Below are positions 5,832 to 60,371 of a DNA stretch of 64,000 nt, piece by piece. Within the stretch, counting starts at the first letter, position 1. Each line of letters begins with the position of its first letter. A program made the translations under genes and the position numbers. The stretch is from Trypanosoma brucei (Eukaryota), in assembly GCA_000002445.1 (NCBI GenBank), contig CH464491.1, forward strand, positions 992,001 to 1,056,000, in the 5' to 3' direction. Below the pieces are notes generated by a model. That model ran no database searches, had not been told where the DNA came from, and worked only from the letters and a program-made list of their open reading frames with translations.

Positions 5832-6734
5832 ATCCCACAGCTACACCAGCGGCTCCGACGCTGAAGGGACATCTGAAAGGGTGTGGTGTCGAAACACGTC
5901 GCGGGATCTTTTCAGACGACCCATTGAGTGAGGGGAAAGGGGGGAAAAGAATGGAAGAAGGTTAGCAGATGGAATGAACGAATGGGTCGTGTCAGGCATA
6001 GTGTGGGCGATGGAGTTGTCATGCTTTTATCGGTCGTTGGTGGTTAATATAGCAAATGTTATGGTGCGGCCAATTGCTAGAAGGGAAATCGAACAGGCAA
6101 CAAGTATTGTCTGTGCTCCGTTTAGCCCACTTGTGGACAGCAGTAGCAGGCTTATATTTACCATGCAGGGCTCTGCATATTTCGCGTTGCCAGTATGGAA
6201 AAAAAAAAGTGATGAGTAAACGGAAGGTGGAGGAACTTCCTTAACGAACCGAAGGGGAACGGTAGTTGCTAGACATCACGTGAACCAGAGATTTGTTCTC
6301 GCCGTACACTAAACAAGGCGTTATGTAGAAATGAAAAAAAAAATATAAGCGAAGCCCATGGGAGAGGAAACCTGGGAAGGGGGAGTTGATAAAGTCGGAA
6401 AGCGAAGGGGCCTCATATCTTTCTAGTGGCGCGTTTCCACATCGCATGGAGTTGTCCTTTTATCTCCATTTAACTTGCTCTCTTTTTGTTTCTTTCTTCT
6501 CGGTTTTATTGGCCCTCTTCATTTCGCTTTGCACTTCTTTATCTTCTGCTTCCCGTTACTTTTCCCTCCTCCTTACTACCGGGTGCAACGATTCCTCTCT
6601 CTCTCCGCTCGTTTTTTTCTCTTTTTATACGTTGTTATTTTTCGAACCTCGTTTGTTATTCCTTTTGTTTTTTTTGTTTCTTTATCTTTGGATGCGTGCG
6701 TGAGTTTGCTGTCCGTTAATTTGTTTACTTCCAG

Positions 6735-6758
6735 TATATATATATATATATATATATA
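6735..6758. repeat. (TA)12 microsatellite
   Basis: Direct reading. Confidence 0.9.
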
Positions 6759-40230: not shown

Positions 40231-40735
40231 CCTGGCGATGCCGGCCACCTCAACGTGGTGCCAGGGTCCAGTACCCCGTATCATCGGGGGAAGCCAAGAG
40301 CCAGCAGCGTTCCTTTCATGGGGAACACTGCTGTGCTCCGGCTACGGCATCATACAGCACAGGGATCAACAGCGTCTTGCTGGGACACTGTTTTTCATTT
40401 GTCGGTCCCTGGGCACGTGCCAGCGTGCCATCAGCAGTATCATCCGCGCTAAGATGCTGCTGTCCGGTGATGTGGAACTCCAAAAAAAAGAATTGCCAAT
40501 TGGCATCTTTTGGAGAGTCCGGAGTGGGGGGCTTCTCGCTCCATCTGCTGTATTCCGTTCATGTGCGGAAATACAACAAAAAATTATAGAGGGTGTGTCA
40601 GGATGAATGAAAAAGGGAGACTCTGCCACAGTCGCCAGACCGATAGCATCTCAGGGCTCTACGGTGATGGCTGATGGCCGCGCCAGTGGGGGGAAACTCT
40701 CATGAAGGCACGAAGAAAATTTCAAAAAAAAAAAA
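40231..40735 (+). mobile_element. RIME-type non-autonomous non-LTR retroposon (ingi/RIME family), complete copy with poly(A) tail
   Basis: The 5' end CCTGGCGATGCCGGCCACCTCAACGTGGTGCCAGGGTCCAGTACCCCGTATCATCGGGGGAAGCCAAGAGCCAGCAGC matches the conserved ~79-nt signature of trypanosomatid ingi/RIME/L1Tc elements, recalled from memory. Total length is ~505 bp, ending in A12 at 40724-40735. It is flanked by perfect 12-bp direct repeats. Confidence 0.78.
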
Positions 40736-40747
40736 TTAGAGTTTCCC
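40736..40747 (+). repeat. Right 12-bp target-site duplication (TTAGAGTTTCCC)
   Basis: Direct repeat of 40219-40230 abutting the poly(A). Confidence 0.8.
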
Positions 40748-43700
40748 GACTCTTTCAAATTTACCTCATCGCAATGCTTAAGACATGCGTCCTCTGTGGG
40801 AAGATATTTTAATCTAGCTACTCTTTGCCAGACCGGGGTTTCTTCATTAGCAATTGCTAAGACCAGTTCCATTTGCCAATCCACTATGAGCTCACCGCCC
40901 CTCTGAAGCACAGGACTCTCAGCGGCACGGCGATGGGCCCGTTTCCACTTCGGTGCCTGGTGGGTTTTGATTCCCGCTCGGTTGCTCCTGCTTCTCACTG
41001 ATTACGTTAAGACTCTTGGGGGAAACGCACGGAGGTCACAGCGAGACGTCGGTTGTTTGAAAACACCGGCGCAACGATTGCGCTTTCTAAAAGTCCTGTT
41101 GTCTGCGGACTCCTGAAAACAGTTAATCTATCTCGAGGGAGTGCTGAAAATCCTCCGCCTTCTGTTTTGGGGCGGGCCGCCCCAGTGCGTTGGTAGTGAA
41201 TGAGACTGTGTGCCGTACCCTCCCCAGCTTTCATGGACGCCTCCTGCGCCGGATCGGAACCCGCCGCGCCCACGTGGGCCGCTGTCGGCAAGGGCGGCTG
41301 TTCTCCATCTAACGGTGCTTTCGCGTTCCATTGACTTCGCCGGAGGATGGGGTATTGTGGTTCATGGGAATCCCAGCCACGAAGGGAAGGGGGCTCGAGA
41401 AACAGGGAGCGGCGGAGCTGTGTGTTTGCAGTTCCGGGGGCGGTTGCTTAAAGGGTGGGTCTTTCCTCCACGTTATCCCTTTCCAAAAAGCCGCTGCCTG
41501 GCCGCCGCGGAGGTTACCGGTTCAGGGTCAGCGAGAGGTTGGCTTTTGGCTTCGTTTTCACTAGCCGGCTGCCGGTGCCAGTTCATCGGATGGGTTGCAG
41601 TATCACGTGAAAGGACGTTCTCTCGCGTGCGGGAAATCGTTGTGCGAAAAGGTCGGGGGAATGAACCTTGCCAGTGGTATGCCCTCTACCGCTGCCGTCC
41701 TTGTGGTCTTGCAATGCTTTGACCTGTGGGCACGGTTGTTTTCGTTTGGTTATTGATGACATATGCCCACTTTCATCAATCCGCTTCGAGGTGTGTATGG
41801 TTCGCGCGTGGAACGGCTTTGGCTTCTACATTTTTTTAAAAAGTTTGACACTGTCTTCTCAAGTTACTTGGATTTCGTATTTGGGAAAGACGCTGGTGAT
41901 ATATTGTGGTTGTTGTTATACTGGTTGGAGATCTAATGCTCAAAGTAACTATTAATTATTACAACTCGATAAAAAAAAATGTCCCGAGGGTGCTAAAGGA
42001 TATGTATAAATGATGAAGCTTTCAAACGATTTCCCTCTGACTTTGTTCGGCCGGTTGTTCAGGCGTTTTGTAAGATTTTCATTGTTGCGAACAACTATGC
42101 TTGCTTTCCTATTGGTCTATGAGATGTGAAGCTATGGGGATACCTTTGCTTGGGATTAATAAAAAAGACTACTATTCCGTCGCAAGATTCTATTTTTTTC
42201 CCCCCTCTCTTTTGCGTGTATTTTAGCCCGGTAGGTTGTTTTTCTGGTGGTCATATATGATTTTATCTCATGGTGGTGTCGCAACCGATTTTGCTTAAAT
42301 CATATGGTTCATATTTCTTAGTGAAATATTTCTTTTGTTTAATACAGGAATACAGGCCAGTCCGTGGCATGTAGCGCATGCACTGATGAGGTCGCCGTTG
42401 TTCCGCCTCCGTGATATTGTGGAGGTAAGAGTTTCCCAAAATGTCTTCGAACCCTCAATGTAGTTAATGAATATTTGGGAACGGTGCGTTGTTGCTCCTT
42501 AGGGTGGATAAGGGCCACCTGGCGAATGCTTAGCGGTTTATCTTAAGGGCCTGAGGTTGGGGATGGGGACACACATCTAATTTGTAAGTGTTTTACACAC
42601 TTTTCTGATTTTGCTTTTGAGGGAAAATTGTTTGCGTCCCTCAGTGGGCAAAAAGGCGCTTAAACTCATTAGGCCACCATATTTTAAATATTGTGATCAA
42701 TGATGTTAAATATAGGTAAACTACTGTGCCCTCGCTTGACTCAAGGAGTTCAACCAACGATGATTCCACTGCCAATGACAAATGCATGTTCGAAACAAGA
42801 GGGGATGCGGTCGTTTTTCCGCGGGCGGCGTGCAAAAAAAAAAAAAAGGACGGCGAAGTGCAGTAACAACAAAACACTTTATAAAAATAATGCCACTCTC
42901 AGCGACACGTGCTGCTAATAGAGATGGTGCTACCCCTTGGATAATTATCCGTTAGCATGGCCACTGTGCCCACTTGTTGTCATGACTCTGTTGGGCTGTC
43001 ATCTTAACTGTTTGCCTTACCGATAGGTGCCCGTGAGGCATATCCGTAACAAGCAGTTGCTTATTCCTTTTCGTCTGGGTTACTTTCCAACAAACAAAAT
43101 TTGGTTGTACAATGCGCATCGTGAGGCTTCAGCAGAGGAACGACATCATTTCCTATTGAGGATTGTATGCTTGTACATAAAATATGTGAGTGCGTTTGAT
43201 TTTTTTTAACCTTTAAGGACAAATTAGTAGCATCCGTAGCAAAGGAGTGAATGTACAAGTGTCGGTGTGAATATAATTTCTCGTTATTCACATCGCTTTT
43301 TTGGGATGACTAAACCGCTGCGTGTATTGGCGTATCGGGTTATGCTGATATAGTTTTGATGTAATGCGGTCTAGTTTGTTGGACACATGTTATTGTGTTG
43401 GACTCGAATTTGGTGGTTTACTGTTTCGGTTCTTTGAATATTTTCATTGTGGTCCGTACAAAAGTTTTGGTCAGTTATATGTGGAGGGTTGTTTAAAAAT
43501 ATTTTCTCTTCGTTACTTTTTTGTTTTATTTACAACTGCTATAATCCTATTTCCCCATTTTACCTCTTGATAGAGGTATTTTCAAAGCAATTATTAACGG
43601 CGAATACACGACATCACCATCGATTGTTGACGGGCGAGTGTTTACACTTGGGGTATACTACTAAGTGAGGCCGAGTTTGATTATTTCCCCATGTGCTGTG

Positions 43701-45042
43701 ACGTTTCTATTGTGTTAGTTTTTACACTGGTCATATACTTAAATATTATACATTATATATATATACATATATTAAATTTTGAACCTGCGTCGCATCTTCT
43801 TCAGGAAAAAATTTTCTTACTCCCAATTCTGATAGTTATTTGCATTAATCGACCAGGCGTTTGTTGTGGAGACTGTTCTTTGGTCCTTGTTAATGGATCT
43901 GTGGTCAGGTGTGCGCGTGCATGCTATCTAAAATTTGATGTTTGCATGAATCTTGGGGGTCATATATTGACGAAGATAAAGATTCTGTTCATGGAATTGA
44001 GGTACGTAATTTTTGTGCTTTTCCGATCCGGTTATTACCAAATGACAGAAACACTGTTGTATTGCCACTTCGCGTAGGGGCGTTCAATTTCTAAATTTAT
44101 ATGTTTTTGTATCTGGTCCCGTGCCTAGCCAAAATTATCCGACGCTTCCGCTGATAATGATGTTGACCATTTCCTGTGTGGAATGGAAAGTATTCTCTTA
44201 ATGCTCAGCCGTCCTAGGGCCCCACCGTACTTTTCTAAAAAAAAGAAATGATGGTGACGAGGTGTTGTAGGTTGCGTATGAGGCGAATCGGTTGAGTGCA
44301 AAGACCTGTTGTCACTTGAGGAAGACGGTTTTATGCGTGGCTTTCCTTTAAACTGTTGGGAGGTTTGAGGCAGTCGATGCGATACAGAGCCTTCTGGGTG
44401 CTTGTTTGTTGTGAATATATTTTTTAATTTGTGTTGGATTGACACGATGGGTCGCCACGGTGCCAAGTGATGTTCCTTCTACTTTTGTGTTAGGAAAATA
44501 TCCTCTGTTAACTACATGTCTACCGTTGACTTTATTAATGGTGTGATGCCTAGCGTCGTCCTAATTGTTCTCTGTGGGTGATGGTTGGAAGAGGGTAAAT
44601 ATGTACGCATAGTTTCGTCGTTGAATTTGTTTTCCACTGTACGTGACAACAAGTGTACTGTTTTCTCTGATGCAAGGTGAGCAAACTCGGCTGTGCTTTT
44701 TATATGTTTTAGCTTCTTCAACATATACATATATTTAAGGTAAGTACACCTGGAAGAACGTACAATACTTTGCGTATTTTCTTTTTTAATGACTATTCCG
44801 ATCTTGACATACAACTTGTTTGTCTTTACTTGCTACGTTGTTGCGGCGGAACCATCGGGAATGTGGCATATTCTTTTTTACACCCTTTGTTTAGCTAAAA
44901 GTGTTGTGTCGTTATCCTATGTCTTGTTCTTTTGCCTTCTCTACCTGTTCACGCAGTTTATTAGACGGAAAGGAAAGAGAAGGATCACACATATTTGTTG
45001 GGCACCGCAAGAATAGGAGCATACGCTGAAGAGAAAAGTAAG

Positions 45043-48223: not shown

Positions 48224-49537
48224 TTGACCATGACACACAACAGGAGCGGGGCTGTTCGAAGGAAAGTCGTTCAACACGACTTTTATGATTCAGCTGACCA
48301 GGTTGGTGGAGTGGTGTTGCTGAACAACCCTACCAACGGCTCCTGGGAATATGATGAGTACCTTCGGCTGCTCACAACCAAAAGGTACTCTCGTATTCCT
48401 TCGTGGGAAGCACATTCCACTGCGCAGTGCTACTTTGTCTGCGCTGACGGTGTATATCCTAAACTTCAGTCATACGTCAAGGAGCGGCAGGTGAGCCATC
48501 CGCATCTTCGGTTGTTTCAATTTTTTCCTCTATGTGATGCTGTCATCGGTGATATGGACTCTTATGTCACTTCTTACGAAAAGGATGGTTGTGAAAGGCC
48601 TTCATCAACTCCAGAGGGCGGTTACGGCACTGTGGACGATATCCCTGTTGAGGTACTGGACACGATCCATCACAGGTGCCGCTCTGCGGCCGCGCTTTTT
48701 CGGGAGGTGGATGGGAGTGTGCCGGACACGCCACTGAATGGATGGAAAATGTTGCATGAAGAGCATTCCCACCCGTTACTTCGTCCGCTTTGGCTGCATA
48801 TCCAGTGCCAGATTACGACGGACTTCAAAAAGGCGCTGACACTCCTGAAACGGCTGCGCAAGCGGTACCCTGACGAGAACGCTGTCGTGTTACCTCCTGT
48901 TCTGCGTTCACCTGGTGCCGCGCGTATACTGGAAACCGGTGGCGGTGTTGTGGACCAAAGAAACTGCGGGTGCGACAACGACCCGATCCAGGAGCGTGAG
49001 CTGTGCGTTGCGGCCAGCCAGGTTGAAGCATTACTTCTGCCCACCGTTGTCGCTGTCGGTGCCTTCGGTGGTCGCTTTGACCACGAGGTGGGAGCCATCT
49101 CTACGATGCTTTCTGAGAGTCATGATGCACATATAGTGCTTATAAATTTGTTTAATACGGTGTTTGCGTGTCAGGGAGGTGGGTGGACACAGATTGTGCG
49201 GCAACCCGAGTATGAAGACAAGACTTGCGGTCTTGTAAACTACGGAAGAATGACTGAGTGCGAGACGAGTGGTTTGCTCTGGAATGTTGTGAAGGGCAGG
49301 GGGAGGCCAAGTGTTACAAACGATTTCGTTTTCGACTTTGGGGCGTTTATTTCCGTCTGCAACATTGTTCGCCGCGAAGTTATAACGGTTGATTTGCGGT
49401 GCCTTTTAACGAGTGTGGGGGAGTCACCTGCGGATGCGACGACCGCTACAGGCGCTTCTGATTGCGAAGCGCAACGCGGTCGTGGCCCACCTGTAGTGTT
49501 CTCCATACTTCGGCGGCAAAAAAAGGAGGGGGGCTAG
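48224..49537 (+). CDS. Thiamine pyrophosphokinase-like protein
   Basis: VIGDMDSY (compare TPK GDFDS) and VAVGAFGGRFDHEVGAISTM (compare TPK LGGLGGRFDQ). At 437 aa it is longer than canonical TPK. Confidence 0.6.
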   Translation: MTMTHNRSGAVRRKVVQHDFYDSADQVGGVVLLNNPTNGSWEYDEYLRLLTTKRYSRIPSWEAHSTAQCYFVCADGVYPKLQSYVKERQVSHPHLRLFQFFPLCDAVIGDMDSYVTSYEKDGCERPSSTPEGGYGTVDDIPVEVLDTIHHRCRSAAALFREVDGSVPDTPLNGWKMLHEEHSHPLLRPLWLHIQCQITTDFKKALTLLKRLRKRYPDENAVVLPPVLRSPGAARILETGGGVVDQRNCGCDNDPIQERELCVAASQVEALLLPTVVAVGAFGGRFDHEVGAISTMLSESHDAHIVLINLFNTVFACQGGGWTQIVRQPEYEDKTCGLVNYGRMTECETSGLLWNVVKGRGRPSVTNDFVFDFGAFISVCNIVRREVITVDLRCLLTSVGESPADATTATGASDCEAQRGRGPPVVFSILRRQKKEGG

Positions 49538-49967
49538 GTGCGTGTTTTCTTTGAGCTCTATTCGTCCTTGTTTTATTTATTCATCGTTTTCCTTGTGTTT
49601 GGTTACCCTGCTGTACACGAGAGTCCCACCAACATTGTACTGATATTTCCATCTTTTTTAGCGTTTCATTCTTAAACGCACCGTTTCTGGAGTGCGTATC
49701 CACGGCAATATAAGAAAACTTCACGAGTGCTAATGGGTGATCCTATCGATGATTTATTGCACCATTTTTAACGGCCATTTATTCGGGTATTCTGATCTTT
49801 TCTGTAAGTGTGTAATCTACTGCTGTCAACCGTTCTTAGGTGATAACGTCTGCGATTGTCTTACAGTATACCCATGTACATTTACTTTCAACATTCCCTT
49901 GTATATGTGTTACGTGCCTGTGTATGCGACATCCATACCATACATAAAACAGAAAGGAACCTGAAAC

Positions 49968-50789
49968 ATGGCCAAGAAGCACCTAAAGCGCCTGTATGCC
50001 CCCAAGGACTGGATGCTGAGCAAACTCACTGGTGTGTTTGCCCCTCGTCCACGTGCTGGTCCCCACAAACTACGCGAGTGCCTTTCGCTTCTGATTATTA
50101 TTCGCAACCGGCTGAAGTATGCACTAAATGCCCTCGAAGCGCAGATGATCCTTCGTCAGGGACTCGTGTGTGTAGACGGCAAGCCCCGCAAGGATGGTAA
50201 GTACCCAGCCGGTTTCATGGACGTGGTGGAGATTCCCAAGACGGGCGACCGCTTCCGCATCCTATATGACGTGAAAGGACGCTTTGCGCTTGTCCGCGTG
50301 AGCGAGGCTGAGTCGAGCATCAAGATGATGAAGGTTGTCAACGTATACACCGGCACGGGACGCATTCCTGTTGCTGTGACACACGACGGCCACCGGATTC
50401 GCTATCCCGACCCCCGTACGAGCCGTGGAGACACTTTGGTGTATGACGTGAAAGAAAAAAAGGTTTTGGACCTAATCAAGATTGGCAACGGCAAGGTTGT
50501 GATGGTGACAGGTGGTGCCAACCGTGGTCGTATTGGAGAAATTGTGTCCATTGAACGTCACCCTGGCGCCTTCGACATCGCCCGCCTCAAGGATGCGTCT
50601 GGTCACGAATTCGCAACTCGTGCCACAAACATTTTTGTGATTGGCAAGGACATGTCGAGTGTTCCAGTTACGTTACCTAAGCAACAGGGTTTGCGTATCA
50701 ACGTGATTCAGGAGCGTGAGGAAAAACTCATAGCCGCCGAAACACGCAGAACAACTCAGGCGCACAGCAAGCGAAAGACTAAGGTGTAA
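49968..50789 (+). CDS. RPS4: 40S ribosomal protein S4, copy 1
   Basis: 273 aa, MAKKHLKRLYAPKDWMLSKLTGVFAPRPRAGPHKLRE... is a canonical eukaryotic RPS4 N-terminus, with KOW-like and S4 domains. Confidence 0.95.
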   Translation: MAKKHLKRLYAPKDWMLSKLTGVFAPRPRAGPHKLRECLSLLIIIRNRLKYALNALEAQMILRQGLVCVDGKPRKDGKYPAGFMDVVEIPKTGDRFRILYDVKGRFALVRVSEAESSIKMMKVVNVYTGTGRIPVAVTHDGHRIRYPDPRTSRGDTLVYDVKEKKVLDLIKIGNGKVVMVTGGANRGRIGEIVSIERHPGAFDIARLKDASGHEFATRATNIFVIGKDMSSVPVTLPKQQGLRINVIQEREEKLIAAETRRTTQAHSKRKTKV

Positions 50790-51037
50790 GTTGGTCTCTT
50801 TCTGCTGACTTTTTTTTTTACGAAGAAGCAAGGATTTTGGTTCCATTCATACTAATTTATTTTACGTTTTATAATCTATTGATTTATGTTGATCGAGACC
50901 CGTCACTATCACTAACATCAGCAAGGCAAGTGTGCACACTTGCAGTTCCCCCTTGTCGATAGTGTATAAAAGATACGCATTTCCTCCCCCGAAAACAATG
51001 TCTTCCGTTTAAAAAGTGGTTTGTTTAGCCGTCCCCA

Positions 51038-51859
51038 ATGGCCAAGAAGCACCTAAAGCGCCTGTATGCCCCCAAGGACTGGATGCTGAGCAAACTCACT
51101 GGTGTGTTTGCCCCTCGTCCACGTGCTGGTCCCCACAAACTACGCGAGTGCCTTTCGCTTCTGATTATTATTCGCAACCGGCTGAAGTATGCACTAAATG
51201 CCCTCGAAGCGCAGATGATCCTTCGTCAGGGACTCGTGTGTGTAGACGGCAAGCCCCGCAAGGATGGTAAGTACCCAGCCGGTTTCATGGACGTGGTGGA
51301 GATTCCCAAGACTGGCGACCGCTTCCGCATCCTATATGACGTGAAAGGACGCTTTGCGCTTGTCCGCGTGAGCGAGGCTGAGTCGAGCATCAAGATGATG
51401 AAGGTTGTCAACGTATACACCGGCACGGGACGCATTCCTGTTGCTGTGACACACGACGGCCACCGGATTCGCTATCCCGACCCCCGTACGAGCCGTGGAG
51501 ACACTTTGGTGTATGACGTGAAAGAAAAAAAGGTTTTGGACCTAATCAAGATTGGCAACGGCAAGGTTGTGATGGTGACAGGTGGTGCCAACCGTGGTCG
51601 TATTGGAGAAATTGTGTCCATTGAACGTCACCCTGGCGCCTTCGACATCGCCCGCCTCAAGGATGCGTCTGGTCACGAATTCGCAACTCGTGCCACAAAC
51701 ATTTTTGTGATTGGCAAGGACATGTCGAGTGTTCCAGTTACGTTACCTAAGCAACAGGGTTTGCGTATCAACGTGATTCAGGAGCGTGAGGAAAAACTCA
51801 TAGCCGCCGAAACACGAAGAACAACTCAGGCGCACAGCAAGCGAAAGACTAAGGTGTAA
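51038..51859 (+). CDS. RPS4: 40S ribosomal protein S4, copy 2 (identical protein)
   Basis: Encoded protein is 100% identical to copy 1, with 2 synonymous nt differences. The flanks are unrelated. Confidence 0.95.
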   Translation: MAKKHLKRLYAPKDWMLSKLTGVFAPRPRAGPHKLRECLSLLIIIRNRLKYALNALEAQMILRQGLVCVDGKPRKDGKYPAGFMDVVEIPKTGDRFRILYDVKGRFALVRVSEAESSIKMMKVVNVYTGTGRIPVAVTHDGHRIRYPDPRTSRGDTLVYDVKEKKVLDLIKIGNGKVVMVTGGANRGRIGEIVSIERHPGAFDIARLKDASGHEFATRATNIFVIGKDMSSVPVTLPKQQGLRINVIQEREEKLIAAETRRTTQAHSKRKTKV

Positions 51860-51980
51860 CGGCTAAATTCACATACAGTTACTTTCATTCTTTACACACC
51901 ACCTTGATCAACTGCACATATTAAATACTTGCCTGTAAAATGAGCAGTATCATCCCCACTTAAGGAAACTGTAAGCTTAG

Positions 51981-52008
51981 TCACTTCCCTCCTTTCTCTT
52001 TCTTTTTG
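51981..52008 (+). promoter_or_regulatory. Polypyrimidine tract plus downstream AG: probable trans-splice acceptor of transporter gene (repeated in each unit at 54960.. and 57932..)
   Basis: tcacttccctcctttctctttctttttgt followed by an AG (gaAGgttaaAG) lies about 130 nt upstream of the ATG and is conserved in all three units. Confidence 0.45.
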
Positions 52009-52151
52009 TACGAAGGTTAAAGCCACAAGACTCTCTTACTGAACTCAGGCAAGTGAACAACACCGCACTAAACCAGAATCGCATAAGTTACATCCACTAT
52101 CCATCCACTCGGGTTTAACTGAATTGCATCGCTGGATACCTTTCGTGTGCA

Positions 52152-53459
52152 ATGGCTCTTGGATTTTCCTCTGCGGGGGAAGTGTACATGTACGCAACAT
52201 GCATCCTTCTTGGAGTGTCCCTTCTAATGCCCCTTAACGCTCTCGTTTCCGCACCGCGCTTTATGGTGGACTACTACAAGTACGTATCTGGTAAAGAGGA
52301 TGCCGAACCGAACCTTCCCTTTTTCTGGAAGAATATTTTCACGTTCTACAATGTTGTATCGCTTGCGTCGCAGGTGATTGCTGGACCGACCGTTCTAACT
52401 CGTGCAGCCCGTCGACTTTCATTATCTGTGCGCTTTGCCCTTTCCATCACGTTGATGATGTCGGAGGTATTTGTAGTTCTCATGATGCCTGTGATCAAGG
52501 TACCTCAAACAGTTGCCATTGTTCTTCTCTGCCTTGTGACAATATTTGCAGGTATTGGGAAATCATACCATGAGGCGACGTGCTACGTTCTGGTGGCGTC
52601 GATGCCATCTAAGTTCATGTCTGCTGTTATGTTTGGAGTGTCACTATGCGGTGTAATAACGTCCACACTACAGTGCATCATCAAGGCATCGATGGAAGAT
52701 ACCTATGAGTCCGTGCTGACGCAGTCATACATTTATTTTTCACTTGGTCTACTGATAATGGCGGGTACACTTGCGATGGCTCTCTGTCTACGATATAATT
52801 CCTACGCGCAGGAGCACGTTGCTGAGTACCGTATGCTCAAACTACAAGAACAAGGAGTAGATGCTGAGTCTCAAAATGATGAGAATGAACCCGTGGCTGA
52901 AGGTAAAGGTGAAGGTGAAGGTAAGAGTGAGGGTGCCATGACGACAGCAGAGCAACTGACGGCAACTGCTGTTATGCCCGTAGCGAGGATAATCCGTATG
53001 ATGTTAGTGACAGTCTTCTGCGGCTTCTTCCTCACCTTATTTATCTTCCCCAGTCTTATTATTCCCATCGATCGTGACCACAATTGGTTTGCGACAATTG
53101 CCATTCTGCTATACAACTGTGGGGATGCTATTGGACGTTTCTCCACCTCGTTCAAGTGCGTTTGGCCGCCCCGCCGTGCTCTGCTGTACGCCACCTTCGC
53201 CCGCTTCATTTTTGTTCTGCCCTTCATGTTATGCATTTACCAATACATCCCTGGCCATGTCGGTCCGTATATCTTCTCGTTTCTCCTTGGCCTGACCAAC
53301 TGTGTGGGTGCCATGTCGATGGTGTATGGCCCAATAACCCCTGGTCTTGAGACTGCGGGTCAGAAATTGATGGCTGGACAGTTGATGGGGATTTCGCTGC
53401 TTTCTGGAATTGCCGCTGCATCTGTGCTTGCGATGATTGTGGTTGTCTTCCTACCATGA
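52152..53459 (+). CDS. Equilibrative nucleoside/nucleobase transporter (ENT family), copy 1; resembles T. brucei NT8-type purine nucleobase transporters
   Basis: 435 aa with ~11 predicted TM helices and the ENT N-terminal pattern (EVYMYATCILLGVSLLMPLNALVSAPRFMVDYY). There is a charged EG-repeat cytoplasmic loop between TM6 and TM7. Confidence 0.88.
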   Translation: MALGFSSAGEVYMYATCILLGVSLLMPLNALVSAPRFMVDYYKYVSGKEDAEPNLPFFWKNIFTFYNVVSLASQVIAGPTVLTRAARRLSLSVRFALSITLMMSEVFVVLMMPVIKVPQTVAIVLLCLVTIFAGIGKSYHEATCYVLVASMPSKFMSAVMFGVSLCGVITSTLQCIIKASMEDTYESVLTQSYIYFSLGLLIMAGTLAMALCLRYNSYAQEHVAEYRMLKLQEQGVDAESQNDENEPVAEGKGEGEGKSEGAMTTAEQLTATAVMPVARIIRMMLVTVFCGFFLTLFIFPSLIIPIDRDHNWFATIAILLYNCGDAIGRFSTSFKCVWPPRRALLYATFARFIFVLPFMLCIYQYIPGHVGPYIFSFLLGLTNCVGAMSMVYGPITPGLETAGQKLMAGQLMGISLLSGIAAASVLAMIVVVFLP

Positions 53460-53567
53460 GTACGCTTAATGGAGGAGCCGCCTCTCACTAACACCACTTT
53501 GTTAGTACGTGACGTGTTTTAAGTGATGGAGCATCGTTGATGTTTTATCAAAGATACTATCTTAACT

Positions 53568-53568
<1 letters not shown>

Positions 53569-53598
<30 letters not shown>
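53569..53598. repeat. (TA)15 microsatellite in transporter intergenic region (11 repeats in unit 2 at 56549-56570, absent in unit 3)
   Basis: Direct reading of tatatata...; repeat count differs between array units. Confidence 0.9.
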
Positions 53599-53602
<4 letters not shown>

Positions 53603-55130
53603 TAGTTTATATCTTTTTTACATTAACAAGATTATTTTATTTTAATTATTTATTTTTTTTTGATTTTCCTTTAACTGAAGGCATGTGCGGGTAAGGCAGC
53701 ATAAACTATTTTGGACTGCCTCAGTACGCTAGCCCCTTTATAACATACGTTTTTGTTTATTTTTTTTGTCTTAGGACTGCTTCCCCGCTACTGGGTATGT
53801 TGAGGGAAAAAACGTCAGACACTTTCTCTCGGCACCTGGTGCGGTGTGTCCGGCATTTACTTCCCTTCCTTTTTTTTTATGATGCACATTACGTTGCCTG
53901 CTGAAGATATTGTTTGGAGCAATGTGCTTGTGGTGTTTGGGTGTACTGAAATTTGTGGTGAGACGGTGCGACTCTTGTGTGGTTAAGTAAAGGAATGTGA
54001 ACTGATTGTACGATATGCCACTGGTGTCGCTACCATTCACTGTCAACGAGCTTCAACCATTATTAGTGGTGTGATTTTAGTGGATATAAATAAGAAATAA
54101 ATTCCTAGTGTGTGTTTTCTCCCGTTTCCTCCTTCTTTCATGTAGGCCAACTTTAGTGCGTATGTACGGAGGTATAATATTAGTGTTTAGTAATTTCTGC
54201 GTAAATACCTGCGGTTTCCTTGTTTGCAGCAACACGTTACCTTTCAACTATAGACCTCCGTTGCGTGCTACAATCGTTATTTGTGTATTATAATTATCTA
54301 TTTTAAAAAAATTTTCTATATATATATATATATGTTTGTTTGTTGTATAACTTCGGGGAAGCGCTGTTTTGTAAGGCTGTGTTAGGAAATCTATATTACT
54401 GGTAACAGTAGTAATAAATGGGAGATCGTCTAATTTGTGTGCGTCACGGGGTTTAATGATTATTGTGATGTGCGGTTGTATTGCTGTTATTTTCTGCATC
54501 TGATATGCTTTAGGTTTAAGTACTCAATACCTTCTCCATCCATATAGATATTGTTTCCTTCTCTTTCTCCTTTTCTTTCCTTTCTTATATCTTATTCCTA
54601 CTGCCCCATTGCGATAGTGATAGCGTCAAGTTTATGTATGTTGTTGTAGTTGTACTTGCCGCGCTGCTTCGAAGCTGTTGGCTCACCAATGGTTTTACTG
54701 GATATGGTGTTCCGAAGTTTTTGGAGGACCTATTGCATATGTCCATGTTGCTGTACCGTTGTGTTTGCCTTTCGATGAACTCCCGTGGATTTGCGTGCTC
54801 GTGTTTTTGCTTTTTGCTTCTGTTATGTGGTAATGGCGGATGTGTATACGATGGCGATATCCACATATATGTGATAAGGATGGTGCAGAACCGCAACCAC
54901 TAAATACTTGCCTGTAAAATGAGCAGTATCATCCCCACTTAAGGAAACTGTAAGCTTAGTCACTTCCCTCCTTTCTCTTTCTTTTTGTACGAAGGTTAAA
55001 GCCACAAGACTCTCTTACTGAACTCAGGCAAGTGAACAACACCGCACTAAACCAGAATCGCATAAGTTACATCCACTATCCATCCACTCGGGTTTAACTG
55101 AATTGCATCGCTGGATACCTTTCGTGTGCA

Positions 55131-56438
55131 ATGGCTCTTGGATTTTCCTCTGCGGGGGAAGTGTACATGTACGCAACATGCATCCTTCTTGGAGTGTCCC
55201 TTCTAATGCCCCTTAACGCTCTCGTTTCCGCACCGCGCTTTATGGTGGACTACTACAAGTACGTATCTGGTAAAGAGGATGCCGAACCGAACCTTCCCTT
55301 TTTCTGGAAGAATATTTTCACGTTCTACAATGTTGTATCGCTTGCGTCGCAGGTGATTGCTGGACCGACCGTTCTAACTCGTGCAGCCCGTCGACTTTCA
55401 TTATCTGTGCGCTTTGCCCTTTCCATCACGTTGATGATGTCGGAGGTATTTGTAGTTCTCATGATGCCTGTGATCAAGGTACCTCAAACAGTTGCCATTG
55501 TTCTTCTCTGCCTTGTGACAATATTTGCAGGTATTGGGAAATCATACCATGAGGCGACGTGCTACGTTCTGGTGGCGTCGATGCCATCTAAGTTCATGTC
55601 TGCTGTTATGTTTGGAGTGTCACTATGCGGTGTAATAACGTCCACACTACAGTGCATCATCAAGGCATCGATGGAAGATACCTATGAGTCCGTGCTGACG
55701 CAGTCATACATTTATTTTTCACTTGGTCTACTGATAATGGCGGGTACACTTGCGATGGCTCTCTGTCTACGATATAATTCCTACGCGCAGGAGCACGTTG
55801 CTGAGTACCGTATGCTCAAACTACAAGAACAAGGAGTAGATGCTGAGTCTCAAAATGATGAGAAGGAACCCGTGGCTGAAGGTAAAGGTGAAGGTGAAGG
55901 TAAGAGTGAGGGTGCCATGACGACAGCAGAGCAACTGACGGCAACTGCTGTTATGCCCGTAGCGAGGATAATCCGTATGATGTTAGTGACAGTCTTCTGC
56001 GGCTTCTTCCTCACCTTATTTATCTTCCCCAGTCTTATTATTCCCATCGATCGTGACCACAATTGGTTTGCGACAATTGCCATTCTGCTATACAACTGTG
56101 GGGATGCTATTGGACGTTTCTCCACCTCGTTCAAGTGCGTTTGGCCGCCCCGCCGTGCTCTGCTGTACGCCACCTTCGCCCGCTTCATTTTTGTTCTGCC
56201 CTTCATGTTATGCATTTACCAATACATCCCTGGCCATGTCGGTCCGTATATCTTCTCGTTTCTCCTTGGCCTGACCAACTGTGTGGGTGCCATGTCGATG
56301 GTGTATGGCCCAATAACCCCTGGTCTTGAGACTGCGGGTCAGAAATTGATGGCTGGACAGTTGATGGGGATTTCGCTGCTTTCTGGAATTGCCGCTGCAT
56401 CTGTGCTTGCGATGATTGTGGTTGTCTTCCTACCATGA
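55131..56438 (+). CDS. ENT-family transporter, copy 2 (1 aa different from copy 1: N to K in loop)
   Basis: 435 aa. The only difference from copy 1 is QNDENEP versus QNDEKEP. Confidence 0.88.
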   Translation: MALGFSSAGEVYMYATCILLGVSLLMPLNALVSAPRFMVDYYKYVSGKEDAEPNLPFFWKNIFTFYNVVSLASQVIAGPTVLTRAARRLSLSVRFALSITLMMSEVFVVLMMPVIKVPQTVAIVLLCLVTIFAGIGKSYHEATCYVLVASMPSKFMSAVMFGVSLCGVITSTLQCIIKASMEDTYESVLTQSYIYFSLGLLIMAGTLAMALCLRYNSYAQEHVAEYRMLKLQEQGVDAESQNDEKEPVAEGKGEGEGKSEGAMTTAEQLTATAVMPVARIIRMMLVTVFCGFFLTLFIFPSLIIPIDRDHNWFATIAILLYNCGDAIGRFSTSFKCVWPPRRALLYATFARFIFVLPFMLCIYQYIPGHVGPYIFSFLLGLTNCVGAMSMVYGPITPGLETAGQKLMAGQLMGISLLSGIAAASVLAMIVVVFLP

Positions 56439-58101
56439 GTACGCTTAATGGAGGAGCCGCCTCTCACTAACACCACTTTGTTAGTACGTGACGTGTTTTA
56501 AGTGATGGAGCATCGTTGATGTTTTATCAAAGATACTATCTTAACTTGTATATATATATATATATATATATGTATTAGTTTATATCTTTTTTACATTAAC
56601 AAGATTATTTTATTTTAATTATTTATTTTTTTTTGATTTTCCTTTAACTGAAGGCATGTGCGGGTAAGGCAGCATAAACTATTTTGGACTGCCTCAGTAC
56701 GCTAGCCCCTTTATAACATACGTTTTTGTTTATTTTTTTTGTCTTAGGACTGCTTCCCCGCTACTGGGTATGTTGAGGGAAAAAACGTCAGACACTTTCT
56801 CTCGGCACCTGGTGCGGTGTGTCCGGCATTTACTTCCCTTCCTTTTTTTTTATGATGCACATTACGTTGCCTGCTGAAGATATTGTTTGGAGCAATGTGC
56901 TTGTGGTGTTTGGGTGTACTGAAATTTGTGGTGAGACGGTGCGACTCTTGTGTGGTTAAGTAAAGGAATGTGAACTGATTGTACGATATGCCACTGGTGT
57001 CGCTACCATTCACTGTCAACGAGCTTCAACCATTATTAGTGGTGTGATTTTAGTGGATATAAATAAGAAATAAATTCCTAGTGTGTGTTTTCTCCCGTTT
57101 CCTCCTTCTTTCATGTAGGCCAACTTTAGTGCGTATGTACGGAGGGATAATATTAGTGTTTAGTAATTTCTGCGTAAATACCTGCGGTTTCCTTGTTTGC
57201 AGCAACACGTTACCTTTCAACTATAGACCTCCGTTGCGTGCTACAATCGTTATTTGTGTATTATAATTATCTATTTTAAAAAATTTTTCTATATATATAT
57301 ATGTTTGTTTGTTGTATAACTTCGGGGAAGCGCTGTTTTGTAAGGCCGTGTTAGGAAATCTGTATTACTGGTAACAGTAGTAATAAATGGGAGATCGTCT
57401 AATTTGTGTGCGTCACGGGGTTTAATGATTATTGTGATGTGCGGTTGTATTGCTGTTATTTTCTGCATCTGATATGCTTTAGGTTTAAGTACTCAATACC
57501 TTCTCCATCCATATAGATATTGTTTCCTTCTCTTTCTCTTTCTCCTTTTCTTTCTTATATCTTATTCCTACTGCCCCATTGCGATAGTGATAGCGTCAAG
57601 TTTATGTATGTTGTTGTAGTTGTACTTGCCGCGCTGCTTCGAAGCTGTTGGCTCACCAATGGTTTTACTGGATATGGTGTTCCGAAGTTTTTGGAGGACC
57701 TATTGCATATGTCCATGTTGCTGTACCGTTGTGTTTGCCTTTCGATGAACTCCCGTGGATTTGCGTGCTCGTGTTTTTGCTTTTTGCTTCTGTTATGTGG
57801 TAATTGCGGATGTGTATACGATGGCGATATCCACAAAATATGTGATAAGGATGGTGCAGAACCGCAACCACTAAATACTTGCCTGTAAAATGAGCAGTAT
57901 CATCCCCACTTAAGGAAACTGTAAGCTTAGTCACTTCCCTCCTTTCTCTTTCTTTTTGTACGAAGGTTAAAGCCACAAGACTCTCTTACTGAACTCAGGC
58001 AAGTGAACAACACCGCACTAAACCAGAATCGCATAAGTTACATCCACTATCCATCCACTCGGGTTTAACTGAATTGCATCGCTGGATACCTTTCGTGTGC
58101 A

Positions 58102-59424
58102 ATGGCTCTTGGATTTTCCTCTGCGGGGGAAGTGTACATGTACGCAACATGCATCCTTCTTGGGATTTCCCTCCTCATGCCTCTCTGTGTCCTGGTTTCC
58201 GCACCAAGCTTTATGTTGAACTACTACAAGTACGTATCTGGTAAAGAGGATTCCGAACCGAACCTTCCCTTTTTCTGGAAGAATATTTTCACGTTCTACA
58301 ATGTTGTATCGCTTGCGTCGCAGGTGATTGCTGGACCGACCGTTCTAACTCGTGCAGCCCGTCGACTTTCATTATCTGTGCGCTTTGCCCTTTCCATCAC
58401 GTTGATGATGTCGGAGGTATTTGTAGTTCTCATGATGCCTGTGATCAAGGTACCTCAAACAGTTGCCATTGTTCTTCTCTGCCTTGTGACAATATTTGCA
58501 GGTATTGGGAAATCATACCATGAGGCGACGTGCTACGTTCTGGTGGCGTCGATGCCATCTAAGTTCATGTCTGCTGTTATGTTTGGAGTGTCACTATGCG
58601 GTGTAATAACGTCCACACTACAGTGCATCATCAAGGCATCGATGGATGATACCTATGAGTCTGTGCTGAAGCAGTCATACATTTATTTTTCACTTGGGAT
58701 TTTAATAATGTCCGCAACACTTGCGATGGCTCTCTGTCTACGATATAATTCCTACGCGCAGGAGCACGTTGCTGAGTACCGTATGCTCAAACTACAAGAA
58801 CAAGGAGTAGATGCTGAGTCTCAACATGATGAGAATGAACCCACTGCTGAAGGTGAAGGTGAAAGTAAAGGTGAGGGTGGCGAAGGTGATGCTGAAGGTG
58901 GCATGACGACAGCAGAGCAACTGACAGCAACTGCTGTTATGCCTGTCGTGAAGATTATCCGTATGATGTTATTATGTGTCTTCTGCGGCTTCTTCCTCAC
59001 CTTATTTATCTTCCCCAGTCTTATTATTCCCATCGATCGTAAACACAATTGGTTTGCGACAATTGCCATTCTGCTATACAACTGTGGGGATGCTATTGGA
59101 CGTTTCTCCACCTCGTTCAAGTGCGTTTGGCCGCCCCGCCGTGCTCTGCTGTATTTCACTTTTGGTCGCTTTATTTTTATTTTGCCTTTTATTCTGTGTA
59201 TTTACAAACACATCCCTGGTCACGCAGCTCCGTATATCTTCTCGTTTCTCCTTGGCCTGACCAACTGTGTGGGTGCCATGTCGATGGTGTATGGCCCAAT
59301 AACCCCTGGTCTTGAGACTGCGGGTCAGAAATTGATGGCTGGACAGTTGATGGGGATTTCGCTGCTTTCTGGAATTGCCGCTGCATCTGTGCTTGCGATG
59401 ATTGTGGTTATCTTCCTACCATGA
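58102..59424 (+). CDS. ENT-family transporter, copy 3 (440 aa; mosaic divergent paralogue)
   Basis: Long stretches are identical to copies 1 and 2. Divergent patches are the N-terminal TM1 region, TM6, a 5-aa longer EG-repeat loop, TM7 and TM9/10. Confidence 0.88.
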   Translation: MALGFSSAGEVYMYATCILLGISLLMPLCVLVSAPSFMLNYYKYVSGKEDSEPNLPFFWKNIFTFYNVVSLASQVIAGPTVLTRAARRLSLSVRFALSITLMMSEVFVVLMMPVIKVPQTVAIVLLCLVTIFAGIGKSYHEATCYVLVASMPSKFMSAVMFGVSLCGVITSTLQCIIKASMDDTYESVLKQSYIYFSLGILIMSATLAMALCLRYNSYAQEHVAEYRMLKLQEQGVDAESQHDENEPTAEGEGESKGEGGEGDAEGGMTTAEQLTATAVMPVVKIIRMMLLCVFCGFFLTLFIFPSLIIPIDRKHNWFATIAILLYNCGDAIGRFSTSFKCVWPPRRALLYFTFGRFIFILPFILCIYKHIPGHAAPYIFSFLLGLTNCVGAMSMVYGPITPGLETAGQKLMAGQLMGISLLSGIAAASVLAMIVVIFLP

Positions 59425-60371
59425 GTACGCATAATGGAGGGGCCGCCTCTCGCTTAAACATTCTTTTTTATGTATTAATTTTTTGTAATTTCTTTTTTGT
59501 TTTTAATATATGTAAAGTATCTTAACGTAACATTTTTGGTACTTAATTATTTTGTTGTTTTTTGTGATTTTCTTTTAATTGAAGGCAAGTGTGGGTGAGG
59601 CAGCATAAACTATTTTGGACTGCCTCAGTACGCTAGTCGGTTACTAAATTTGAAAATTTTGTCTTAGGACTGCTTCCCCGCTACTGGGTATGTTGAGGGA
59701 AAAAACGTCAGACACTTTCTCTCGGCACCTGGTGCGGTGTGTCCGGCATTTACTTCCCTTCCTTTTTTTTATGATGCACATTACGTTGCCTGCTGAAGAT
59801 ATTGTTTGGAGCAATGTGCTTGTGGTGTTTGGGTGTACTGAAATTTGTGGTGAGATGGTGCGACTCTTGTGTGGTTAAGTAAAGGAATGTGAACTGATTG
59901 TACGATATGCCACTGGTGTCGCTACCATTCACTGTTAATGGCCTCGACCATTTTTTTTTTTGACATTAATGGGGAAATTTTTGTTTTTGTAAAACGGCAT
60001 GAAGAAAGTAATAATACTGGTATCAGTAGTAATAAACGGGGATTCACCTAACTCTCGTGTAGTTTGCGGTTATTCTGCTTGTTGTTGTACCTACTGTGCT
60101 TTAATGCAATGTGGTTGGTGGGTCCTTCATTTCTCTATCTTTCTCTGCTTCTTCTTTAATTTTTTTTCTTATCTCTTAATCTTAATGTTTCACTGCGGCA
60201 GTTATTGCTCCAAGCTTGTGTATGTTGTAGCTGTACTTGGTGAGTTGTTCTTCTTTGTGTTTTACCTTTTTATTTGTTCCTTTATATTGTTTGATTTCCC
60301 ATTTCCCATTTCTTTTCTTCTTTTATTATTTTTTTGTTATTTTGTTTCATATTCATTAGTATTTTTGTGTA

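What the first reader, a model, noticed from the sequence alone, without database searches (positions are those of the whole stretch)
49968..51859. RPS4 tandem duplicates: identity starts exactly at ATG and stops exactly at the stop codon
The two 822-bp CDSs differ at only two synonymous positions (acg/act at ~50242 versus 51312, and cgc/cga near 50743 versus 51813). The sequences immediately 5' (gaaaggaacctgaaac versus tagccgtccccA) and 3' (gttggtctctttctg versus cggctaaattcacat) are unrelated. Homogenisation is therefore restricted to the coding sequence, giving two identical proteins under independent UTR-mediated control, which is the principal regulatory layer in trypanosomatids.
Basis: seen in the sequence. 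Interest (0 to 1): 0.5.

Follow-up and report, generated by a model that had tools for sequence, protein, structure and literature searches.

The report
Tandem RPS4 genes homogenised by recombination
Two neighbouring copies of the trypanosome gene for ribosomal protein S4 are kept almost identical by recombination only inside the coding sequence, while their flanks are old and unrelated; this pattern is real and very old, but already well known for trypanosomatid ribosomal-protein genes.

Summary
The two 822-bp eS4 (RPS4) coding sequences, 49968-50789 and 51038-51859, differ at two synonymous third positions. Identity begins at the A of ATG and ends at the last base of TAA. The flanks show no detectable similarity.

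It is not a recent segmental duplication. The same TPK–RPS4×N–nucleobase-transporter locus carries 2-4 near-identical copies in T. equiperdum, T. vivax, T. congolense, T. theileri, T. cruzi, four Leishmania species and Angomonas. Within a species dS is at most 0.01. Between species it is 0.6 to saturation. Identity always stops 0-33 nt outside the CDS. Flanks are orthologous between species but unrelated within a species. This is ancient duplication plus concerted evolution by homologous recombination, confined to the only homology that selection preserves.

Copy number varies: 4 in a long-read T. equiperdum assembly, 3 in T. cruzi, each with identical spacers. The unit is therefore CDS plus a ~248-bp spacer, and "two" may be a lower bound.

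Distinct UTRs are shown and are conserved by copy position. Independent regulation is inferred, not shown. The kind is known (Jackson 2006/2007; Borges 2024), so interest is low to moderate.

The parts
49538..49967 (+). Upstream intergenic region, the 5' flank specific to the first copy. It holds pyrimidine-rich stretches, candidate trans-splice acceptor AGs at 49951-49952 and 49955-49956, and the conserved block AGGAACCTGAAAC (49955-49967; GGAACC at 49956-49961).
   Evidence: No similarity to the spacer or the downstream flank. The block AGGAACCT[A/G]AAAC just before ATG is shared by the first-copy flank of T. brucei, T. theileri, T. melophagium, T. cruzi and T. c. marinkellei. T. vivax has AGAAACCT. 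AGGAACCT also occurs in Angomonas and Phytomonas. The splice-site assignment is inferred, not mapped.
49968..50789 (+). RPS4 (eS4) copy 1 CDS, 273 aa; probably Tb927.11.3590.
   Evidence: ORF; Pfam RS4NT, S4, Ribosomal_S4e, KOW and 40S_S4_C; identical to TREU927 EAN79328/EAN79329.
50790..51037 (+). The 248-bp spacer. It holds the 3' UTR and poly(A) region of copy 1, with a T10 run at 50810-50819 and the conserved GGTTCC at 50839-50844. It also holds pyrimidine tracts (50978-50991, 51000-51011), the conserved AG|TGG (AG at 51015-51016) and the ~21-nt 5' UTR of copy 2.
   Evidence: Unique within the window. Repeated three times, identically, between the four T. equiperdum copies, and differs from the window spacer by 1 substitution and 1 T-run indel. 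Spacer length is 247-272 nt in all Trypanosoma examined. AGTG[G/A]G lies ~22 nt upstream of ATG in five species. TGGTTCC is conserved in T. brucei, T. theileri and T. cruzi. RNA-processing sites are inferred.
51038..51859 (+). RPS4 (eS4) copy 2 CDS, the terminal copy; probably Tb927.11.3600. It carries the two private synonymous variants, 51313 T and 51817 A.
   Evidence: T. equiperdum copies 1-3 are identical to window copy 1. The terminal copy is the divergent one in T. equiperdum and T. cruzi as well.
51860..51921 (+). The 62-nt 3' flank unique to the last RPS4 copy; the likely 3' UTR and poly(A) region of copy 2.
   Evidence: No similarity to the spacer. Identical in T. equiperdum after its fourth copy.
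51922..52151 (+). The 230 nt upstream of the first NT8-type transporter gene. It is 100% identical to the equivalent stretch of the two internal transporter intergenic regions, and contains the pyrimidine tract (~51983-52007) that would drive trans-splicing of the transporter mRNA and polyadenylation of RPS4 copy 2.
   Evidence: Alignment A3; repeat families D1-D3. The processing role is inferred from the known coupling of polyadenylation to downstream trans-splicing in trypanosomes (own knowledge).

Best explanation
The locus is an old tandem array of the eS4 ribosomal-protein gene inside a polycistronic transcription unit. It was already present, with distinct outer flanks and an internal spacer, in the common ancestor of Trypanosoma and probably of trypanosomatids. 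The coding sequences are repeatedly homogenised by homologous recombination between the misaligned copies, through gene conversion and unequal sister-chromatid or allelic exchange. Recombination needs homology on both sides of a tract. Only the CDS is held constant by purifying selection, so the unconstrained flank homology has eroded and the homogenised block has shrunk to the CDS. In T. brucei it has shrunk exactly to ATG...TAA. Unequal exchange within the CDS also expands and contracts the array, duplicating the spacer with it. The consequences are extra gene dosage for an abundant protein that cannot be regulated at transcription, an identical protein from every copy, and mRNAs that differ in both UTRs. 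The first copy has its own 5' UTR. The later copies have the spacer-derived 5' UTR. The last copy has its own 3' UTR. What is shown: the anatomy, concerted evolution, copy-number variation and position-specific flank conservation. What is inferred: the recombination pathway, the RNA-processing sites and any difference in expression between copies.
For: (1) Identity is 820/822 and bounded exactly by the CDS, with random-level flanks. (2) The same syntenic locus (M1 peptidase / TPK-like – RPS4×N – ENT transporter) carries tandem RPS4 copies in T. equiperdum (4), T. theileri (2), T. vivax (2), T. cruzi (3, in two long-read assemblies), T. congolense (at least 2), L. braziliensis (2), three Mundinia Leishmania (2 each) and Angomonas deanei (2). 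(3) Paralogs within a species differ at 0-3 of 822 nt (dS 0-0.010). Orthologs between species are 72-86% identical, with dS from 0.62 to above 1.4. Synonymous sites are therefore free to change but are kept alike within a genome. (4) In every species identity stops 0-15 nt upstream and 0-33 nt downstream of the CDS. (5) The duplication predates speciation. In Mundinia the upstream, spacer and downstream regions are each 89-95% identical between species and unrelated within a species. Yet 7 variable CDS sites are fixed in both copies of one species, and 0 sites separate the copy-1s from the copy-2s. In Trypanosoma, the first-copy 5' flank and the spacer-type 5' flank each carry their own conserved block. 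(6) Paralog differences cluster at the ends of the homology block, with 10 of 14 lying within 70 nt of a CDS end (binomial p about 1e-5). This is as expected if tracts rarely reach the edge. In arrays of more than two copies the terminal copy is the divergent one. (7) The spacer copies within the T. equiperdum array and within the T. cruzi array are identical, which shows DNA-level unequal recombination at this locus. (8) The pattern is described for other trypanosomatid genes (PMC1855330; PMC1533823; PMC11098316).
Against: No conversion tract or recombination event is observed directly. The two variants in the window do not define a mosaic. Outside Mundinia and the T. cruzi / T. theileri pair, non-coding sequence is too diverged for full-length flank orthology. 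The Trypanosoma-wide argument therefore rests on short conserved blocks (z 3-7 against shuffles; class test p = 0.01). Several assemblies show one copy: T. melophagium, T. c. marinkellei, CL Brener, Phytomonas and Bodo. These could be real single copies or collapsed repeats. The window's own copy number could also be collapsed. No expression data were available, so the regulatory consequence is untested.
Confidence: 0.85

Rival explanations
1. Simple recent segmental (tandem) duplication in T. brucei. The copies are alike because they have had no time to diverge.
For: Near-identity of the CDS. Copy number does change on short time scales, 2 versus 4 within Trypanozoon.
Against: A recent duplication would leave homologous flanks, and there are none. 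The pair or array, with the same spacer size and the same flank classes, is present across Trypanosoma, Leishmania and Angomonas. Recent expansion explains the extra internal copies of T. equiperdum but not the first and last copies.
Confidence: 0.02
2. No homogenisation: strong purifying selection on codon usage or mRNA sequence of a highly expressed gene freezes synonymous sites in both copies.
For: Ribosomal-protein genes are highly expressed, and codon choice affects mRNA level in trypanosomes (PMC5896880, listed; not read).
Against: Synonymous divergence between species is 0.6 to saturation for the same gene. Species-specific synonymous changes are present in both copies. Selection cannot explain why the same new synonymous variant appears in both paralogs.
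Confidence: 0.02
3. Homogenisation occurs, but the donor is cDNA made from the abundant mRNA (RNA-mediated gene conversion), as proposed for fungal ribosomal-protein paralogs. This would naturally spare non-transcribed or non-homologous flanks.
For: A CDS-only pattern is what Mullis et al. took as support for cDNA donors in fungi (PMC6993855). RPS4 mRNA is abundant. T. brucei has active retroelements (own knowledge).
Against: There are no introns here to discriminate between the two donors. No spliced-leader remnant occurs anywhere in the window, and no poly(A) tract follows either copy. Whole spacers are duplicated in T. equiperdum and T. cruzi. That requires DNA-level exchange, which is therefore already shown to act at this locus and is sufficient.
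Confidence: 0.08
4. Repeated birth and death: each lineage collapses to one copy by deletion between repeats and re-duplicates later, so the copies are always young.
For: Copy number is labile. Several assemblies show a single copy.
Against: Collapse to one copy deletes the spacer, and a new duplication would create a new junction with flank homology. Instead, spacer length (247-272 nt) and the spacer's conserved blocks (AG|TG[G/A]G, TGGTTCC) persist across Trypanosoma. Whole spacers are orthologous among Mundinia species. The single-copy cases are mostly short-read or Sanger assemblies of species whose long-read assemblies show three copies (T. cruzi).
Confidence: 0.04
5. Assembly artefact: the two copies, or their number, result from mis-assembly of a repeat.
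For: Short-read assemblies of this locus are visibly collapsed or scrambled (T. equiperdum OVI L002, T. cruzi L008). A long-read T. equiperdum assembly has four copies.
Against: The two copies carry distinguishing variants and each has unique sequence on one side. The same first and last flanks bound the array in the independent T. equiperdum assembly. The existence of at least two copies with unrelated outer flanks is therefore solid. Only the number of internal copies is uncertain.
Confidence: 0.03

Closest known systems
Leishmania major RPS16 tandem paralogs (LmjF.26.0880/0890), and the general rule that most Leishmania ribosomal-protein genes are duplicated with divergent UTRs (Borges et al. 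2024, PMC11098316)
   Same: A tandem pair of ribosomal-protein genes in a polycistronic unit, with identical CDS and divergent 5' and 3' UTRs.
   Different: For RPS16, paralog-specific protein abundance and compensation were measured. Nothing is measured for RPS4. That paper does not address how CDS identity is maintained. Here the comparative evidence for concerted evolution is explicit, and copy number varies from 2 to 4.
Concerted evolution of tandem gene arrays in T. brucei (Jackson 2007, PMC1855330)
   Same: Tandem duplicates in a polycistronic unit are homogenised by recombination. The first and last copies have curtailed or 'sometimes entirely different' outer non-coding regions. Disruption of flank homology limits concerted evolution.
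   Different: In most arrays described there, and in the neighbouring NT8 array of this window (230 nt shared), the terminal flanks keep a stretch identical to the internal intergenic sequence. Here the shared stretch is 0 nt on both sides. RPS4 does not appear in the passages of that paper retrieved with the search terms used; its array list and supplementary files were not checked.
Leishmania beta-tubulin paralogs (Jackson et al. 2006, PMC1533823)
   Same: Coding sequences are homogenised within a species while UTRs are locus-specific. The last array copy shares only 15 bp with the internal spacer after the stop codon. This is the same order as the 0-33 nt seen here.
   Different: It involves dispersed loci (ectopic conversion) as well as an array, and a different gene family.
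Parallel concerted evolution of duplicated ribosomal-protein genes in fungi (Mullis et al. 2019, PMC6993855)
   Same: Ribosomal-protein paralogs are kept alike at synonymous sites for long periods while non-coding parts diverge.
   Different: The fungal paralogs are dispersed (whole-genome duplication or retroposition) and contain introns, and a cDNA donor is proposed. Here the copies are tandem and intronless, and DNA-level unequal exchange is evident.

Membership tests
Eukaryotic/archaeal ribosomal protein eS4 (RPS4) | Domain architecture RS4NT – S4 – Ribosomal_S4e – KOW – 40S_S4_C, about 260-275 aa | tested here: met
   All five Pfam domains score above their gathering thresholds, in order, in a 273-aa protein. 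The protein is 100% identical to the annotated T. brucei 40S ribosomal protein S4.
Concerted evolution of paralogs (gene conversion / unequal crossing-over) | Paralogs within a genome are more similar than orthologs between species, including at synonymous sites | tested here: met
   Within-species dS is 0-0.010, against 0.62 to above 1.4 between species, in 6 lineages. Differences are 0-3 within and 2-55 between Leishmania species.
Concerted evolution of paralogs (gene conversion / unequal crossing-over) | The duplication predates the speciation events compared (positional orthology of flanks, conserved synteny) | tested here: met
   Synteny is conserved from Angomonas and Leishmania to Trypanosoma. 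Mundinia upstream, spacer and downstream regions are orthologous at 89-95%. Trypanosoma flank classes are conserved by position. This is weaker for the deep Trypanosoma nodes, which rest on short motifs only.
Concerted evolution of paralogs (gene conversion / unequal crossing-over) | Lineage-specific substitutions are shared by both copies, with no sites supporting copy-wise orthology | tested here: met
   7 concerted sites versus 0 orthology sites among three Mundinia species. 48 sites are fixed in both L. braziliensis copies and absent from all Mundinia copies.
Concerted evolution of paralogs (gene conversion / unequal crossing-over) | Directly observed conversion tracts or recombinant mosaics | tested here: inconclusive
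   Too few differences (0-3 per pair) to define tracts. The only indirect signals are the clustering of differences at the CDS ends (p about 1e-5) and copy-number variants with identical spacers.
Trypanosomatid ribosomal-protein paralog pairs with identical CDS and divergent UTRs (RPS16 type) | Tandem or dispersed duplicate RP genes with identical or near-identical CDS and unalignable UTRs | tested here: met
   definition from PMC11098316.
Trypanosomatid ribosomal-protein paralog pairs with identical CDS and divergent UTRs (RPS16 type) | Paralog-specific expression attributable to the UTRs | not testable with these tools
   No transcript or protein data are available here. The main texts that mention Tb927.11.3590 do not separate the copies.
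Recent segmental tandem duplication | Homology extends beyond the gene into both flanks, i.e. the junction unit is repeated | tested here: not met
   0 nt of extension on either side and no significant flank alignment.
Retroposed (processed) gene copy | Spliced-leader or 5' UTR remnant upstream, a poly(A) tract downstream, and target-site duplications | tested here: not met
   No match to the 3' part of the T. brucei spliced leader (sequence from own knowledge) with up to 3 mismatches anywhere in the window. No A-run follows either stop codon. Identity excludes the UTRs that an mRNA copy would carry.

The most novel reading that the evidence does not exclude
The two flank types are not just diverged leftovers. 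They may be separately selected, copy-specific regulatory modules maintained since before the Trypanosoma radiation. The first-copy mRNA carries GGAACC 12 nt before its ATG (49956-49961) and the exact reverse complement GGTTCC about 50 nt after its stop (50839-50844). The same pair occurs in T. theileri and T. cruzi. T. vivax has changed both sides together (GAAACCTC / GAGGTTTC). The motifs are absent from the other flank types. This could be a conserved 5'UTR–3'UTR pairing, or a shared protein site, that gives the first copy its own translational or stability control while recombination keeps the protein identical.
Probability: 0.1. Interest if true: 0.5.

Novelty: new member of a known kind. 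Interest (0 to 1): 0.25.

Why it matters
Trypanosomatids cannot tune individual genes at transcription, so dosage (copy number) and UTRs are the main controls. This locus is a clean, compact example of how recombination and selection divide a gene. The protein-coding block is kept identical across copies for what appears to be the whole history of the family, and the flanks evolve as separate, position-specific units. There are two practical consequences. The copies cannot be told apart by CDS reads or peptides, so expression data for Tb927.11.3590/3600 are ambiguous unless UTR-specific. Copy number in older assemblies may also be under-counted. None of this changes current understanding, because the pattern is documented for other trypanosomatid ribosomal-protein and tubulin genes.

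Tried and rejected
(1) Gapped, sensitive alignment of all flank pairs within the window found nothing beyond chance.

(2) Full-length alignment of spacers and flanks between distant Trypanosoma species gave mostly pyrimidine-tract hits. Only T. cruzi versus T. theileri gave co-linear matches. I therefore relied on proximal 80-nt windows and on the Mundinia species.

(3) RNAduplex of the 30-nt 5' flank against the 120-nt 3' flank gave energies no better than shuffles (z -0.5 to -2.2). The 5'/3' complementarity idea rests only on the specific conserved hexamer pair and one compensatory change. The pair count was made on segments I selected by hand, so it is biased.

(4) Rfam, tRNA and tandem-repeat scans of the whole window found nothing. 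There is no hidden RNA gene in the spacer.

(5) The spliced-leader remnant search was negative, so retroposition was rejected.

(6) Literature searches for copy-specific data on Tb927.11.3590/3600 or their older identifiers found no main text that separates the two copies.

(7) T. melophagium, T. c. marinkellei, Phytomonas and Bodo loci show one copy. I could not decide between true single copies and collapsed repeats, so they are not used as evidence for dating the duplication.
Full report
**1. The observation**

Two ATG-to-TAA ORFs of 822 nt lie at 49968-50789 and 51038-51859 on the + strand. They differ at two positions:
- 50243/51313, ACG/ACT, Thr.
- 50747/51817, CGC/CGA, Arg.

Both are synonymous third positions. 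The base before each ATG and the base after each TAA already differ, so exact identity extends 0 nt outside the CDS.

Blastn with word size 7 compared the upstream intergenic region (49538-49967), the 248-bp spacer (50790-51037) and the downstream intergenic region (51860-52151). It gave only chance-level matches, best E 0.07.

The protein has the complete eS4 domain set. It is identical to the two adjacent T. b. brucei TREU927 entries EAN79328.1 and EAN79329.1. Tb927.11.3590 is listed as ribosomal protein S4 in PMC3493610.

All ORFs of at least 200 aa that do not lie inside a longer + strand ORF are on the + strand, as expected for a trypanosomatid polycistronic unit.

**2. Context in the window**

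Upstream is a thiamin-pyrophosphokinase-like gene (48224-49537). Downstream are three equilibrative-transporter genes at 52152, 55131 and 58102. These correspond to the TbNT8 nucleobase transporters, Tb927.11.3610 onward.

That neighbouring array is a useful internal contrast. Its ~2.97-kb unit is homologous through the intergenic regions. The 230 nt upstream of its first gene (51922-52151) are 100% identical to the internal intergenic copies. [quoted passage not shown] The RPS4 array shares 0 nt with its outer flanks.

**3. The unit is CDS plus spacer, and copy number varies**

An exact-protein look-up found the locus in a long-read T. b. equiperdum assembly (L001). It has four copies at a 1069-bp period between the same outer flanks as in the window.
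- The three spacers are identical to each other. They differ from the window's spacer by one substitution and one T-run indel.
- Copies 1-3 equal window copy 1.
- The fourth, terminal copy carries two private changes, one of them P134L.

T. cruzi long-read assemblies have three copies, with identical spacers in L009. Short-read or Sanger assemblies of the same species show one copy or scrambled copies.

It follows that unequal homologous exchange operates at this locus. With two copies the spacer simply has no partner. The window's "two" may be a lower bound.

**4. Ancient duplication or recent duplication**

The syntenic locus was retrieved from these species:
- T. theileri, T. vivax, T. congolense and T. 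cruzi.
- L. braziliensis and three Mundinia Leishmania.
- Angomonas deanei.
- T. melophagium, T. c. marinkellei, Phytomonas and Bodo saltans, each with a single assembled copy.

Wherever two or more copies are assembled, they differ at 0-3 of 822 nt (dS 0-0.010). Between species, nucleotide identity is 72-86% and dS runs from 0.62 (T. cruzi / T. theileri) to saturation. Synonymous sites therefore evolve freely between species, which excludes codon-level selection as the cause of the within-genome identity.

In every species the identity stops close to the CDS:

| Species | nt upstream of ATG | nt downstream of stop |
|---|---|---|
| T. brucei | 0 | 0 |
| T. theileri | 1 | 1 |
| T. cruzi | 0 | 2 |
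| T. vivax | 1 | 8 |
| Angomonas | 4 | 2 |
| Mundinia | 10 | 5-9 |
| L. braziliensis | 15 | 25 |
| T. congolense | not available | 33 |

The boundary is therefore not tied to the start and stop codons as such. It wanders within a few tens of nucleotides, and in T. brucei it happens to coincide with them exactly.

**5. The duplication predates speciation**

Among the three Mundinia species, the upstream, spacer and downstream regions are each 89-95% identical between species and unrelated to each other within a species. The CDS–spacer–CDS arrangement is therefore older than these species.

Even so, 7 variable CDS sites are fixed in both copies of one species. No site groups the copy-1s against the copy-2s. 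48 sites are fixed in both L. braziliensis copies and absent from all Mundinia copies. This is the signature of concerted evolution after duplication.

In Trypanosoma the non-coding DNA is mostly too diverged to align, but the proximal flanks keep position-specific blocks:
- The first-copy 5' flank ends in AGGAACCT[A/G]AAAC-ATG in T. brucei, T. theileri, T. melophagium, T. cruzi and T. c. marinkellei. T. vivax has AGAAACCT. AGGAACCT is also present in Angomonas and Phytomonas.
- The spacer-type 5' flank has AG|TG[G/A]G about 22 nt before ATG in five species.

Flanks of the same class score higher between species than flanks of different classes (Mann-Whitney p = 0.01). The first-copy class gives z 3.2-6.9 for every species pair. 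Spacer length is 247-272 nt throughout Trypanosoma.

**6. Mechanism**

The best explanation is homology-dependent recombination between the copies, by gene conversion and unequal exchange. It is limited to the block of homology that purifying selection on the protein preserves. Flank homology, once lost by mutation, cannot be restored, because a tract must end in homologous sequence.

Two further observations fit this:
- Paralog differences cluster at the ends of the block. 10 of 14 lie within 70 nt of a CDS end, against 17% expected (binomial p about 1e-5).
- In arrays of more than two copies, the terminal copy is the divergent one.

A cDNA donor, as proposed for fungal ribosomal-protein paralogs, cannot be excluded. 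It is unnecessary, however, because DNA-level exchange is demonstrated by the duplicated spacers. There is also no spliced-leader or poly(A) trace.

**7. Regulatory consequence**

The copies necessarily yield mRNAs with different UTRs. From the sequence I infer the following; none of it is mapped:
- Copy 1: a splice acceptor AG at 49951-52 or 49955-56, giving a 5' UTR of about 11-15 nt.
- Copy 2: a splice acceptor AG at 51015-16, giving a 5' UTR of 21 nt.
- Short 3' UTRs: within the 248-bp spacer for copy 1, and within about 62 nt of unique sequence before the shared NT8 upstream region for copy 2.

Conservation of each 5' flank class across species whose synonymous sites are saturated suggests that the classes are under selection. 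Whether that amounts to independent control is untested. The nearest experimental precedent is L. major RPS16, where tandem paralogs with identical CDS and divergent UTRs differ in abundance and compensate for each other.

**8. Comparison with what is known, and novelty**

The pattern is documented in several places:
- T. brucei arrays in general (Jackson 2007).
- Leishmania beta-tubulin, where only 15 bp are shared after the stop of the last copy.
- Leishmania ribosomal-protein genes, as a rule.
- Fungal ribosomal-protein paralogs.

RPS4 is a further and unusually clean member. It shows a 0-nt flank in T. brucei, and the arrangement is conserved from Angomonas and Leishmania to Trypanosoma. 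I found no paper that treats RPS4 specifically. I rate it a new member of a known kind, of low to moderate interest.

**9. A weak lead**

The first-copy 5' motif GGAACC (49956-49961) has its exact reverse complement GGTTCC in the spacer, 50 nt after the stop (50839-50844). The same pair occurs in T. theileri (+45) and T. cruzi (+34). T. vivax has GAAACCTC and GAGGTTTC (+36), which is a change on both sides. Neither motif occurs in the other flank classes.

A pair count on hand-picked segments gives 87.5% of cells paired and 2 pairs changed on both sides; 20 of 500 shuffles reach that. The segments were chosen for their complementarity, and there are only four sequences. Whole-flank duplex energies are not better than shuffles.

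This could be a first-copy-specific 5'–3' UTR interaction or a shared protein site, or it could be chance. I give it about 10%.

Noticed in passing
window 49956-49961 and 50839-50844: GGAACC lies 12 nt before the ATG of copy 1, and its reverse complement GGTTCC lies 50 nt after the stop of copy 1. The same pair occurs in T. theileri and T. cruzi. T. vivax has a change on both sides (GAAACCTC / GAGGTTTC). The motifs are absent from the other flank classes. This may be a first-copy-specific 5'UTR-3'UTR pairing or a shared protein site. The statistical support is weak.
   Followed up: partly
window 51922-60000 (genes at 52152-53459, 55131-56438, 58102-59424): A three-copy array of NT8-type nucleobase transporters with a ~2.97-kb unit, homologous through the intergenic regions. 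The 230 nt upstream of the first gene are 100% identical in all three units and begin only 62 nt after the RPS4 copy 2 stop. The third copy (440 aa) is more diverged: 85-91% in two of the compared repeat segments and 97-100% in the others. The literature describes a purine-responsive repressor stem-loop in the TbNT8.1 3' UTR. I did not locate it in the window.
   Followed up: partly
L001 7070-7891 (T. b. equiperdum, fourth RPS4 copy): The terminal copy of the four-copy array carries two private changes relative to copies 1-3. One is non-synonymous (P134L). It could be a real variant of the less-homogenised end copy or a long-read consensus error.
   Followed up: no
L017 (Bodo saltans) 6001-6831: The free-living outgroup has one assembled RPS4 copy between the M1 peptidase and the transporter gene, with no TPK-like gene between them. 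Its 5' flank (CAG|TGATCGG) resembles the spacer-type flank (AG|TG[G/A]G) more than the first-copy type. It is a short-read assembly, so the copy number is uncertain.
   Followed up: no
window 35420-39793 and 40452-44995: Two stretches of about 4.4 kb each have no ORF of 200 aa or more on the coding strand of an otherwise densely packed polycistronic unit. They contain only short ORFs of 113-170 aa, and no tRNA, Rfam or tandem-repeat hits.
   Followed up: no
L011 1-10 (T. congolense contig start): The partial first RPS4 copy differs from the second at six clustered positions (CDS 163-172) at the very start of the contig. Elsewhere it is identical over about 650 nt. This is probably contig-end noise rather than real divergence.
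   Followed up: no
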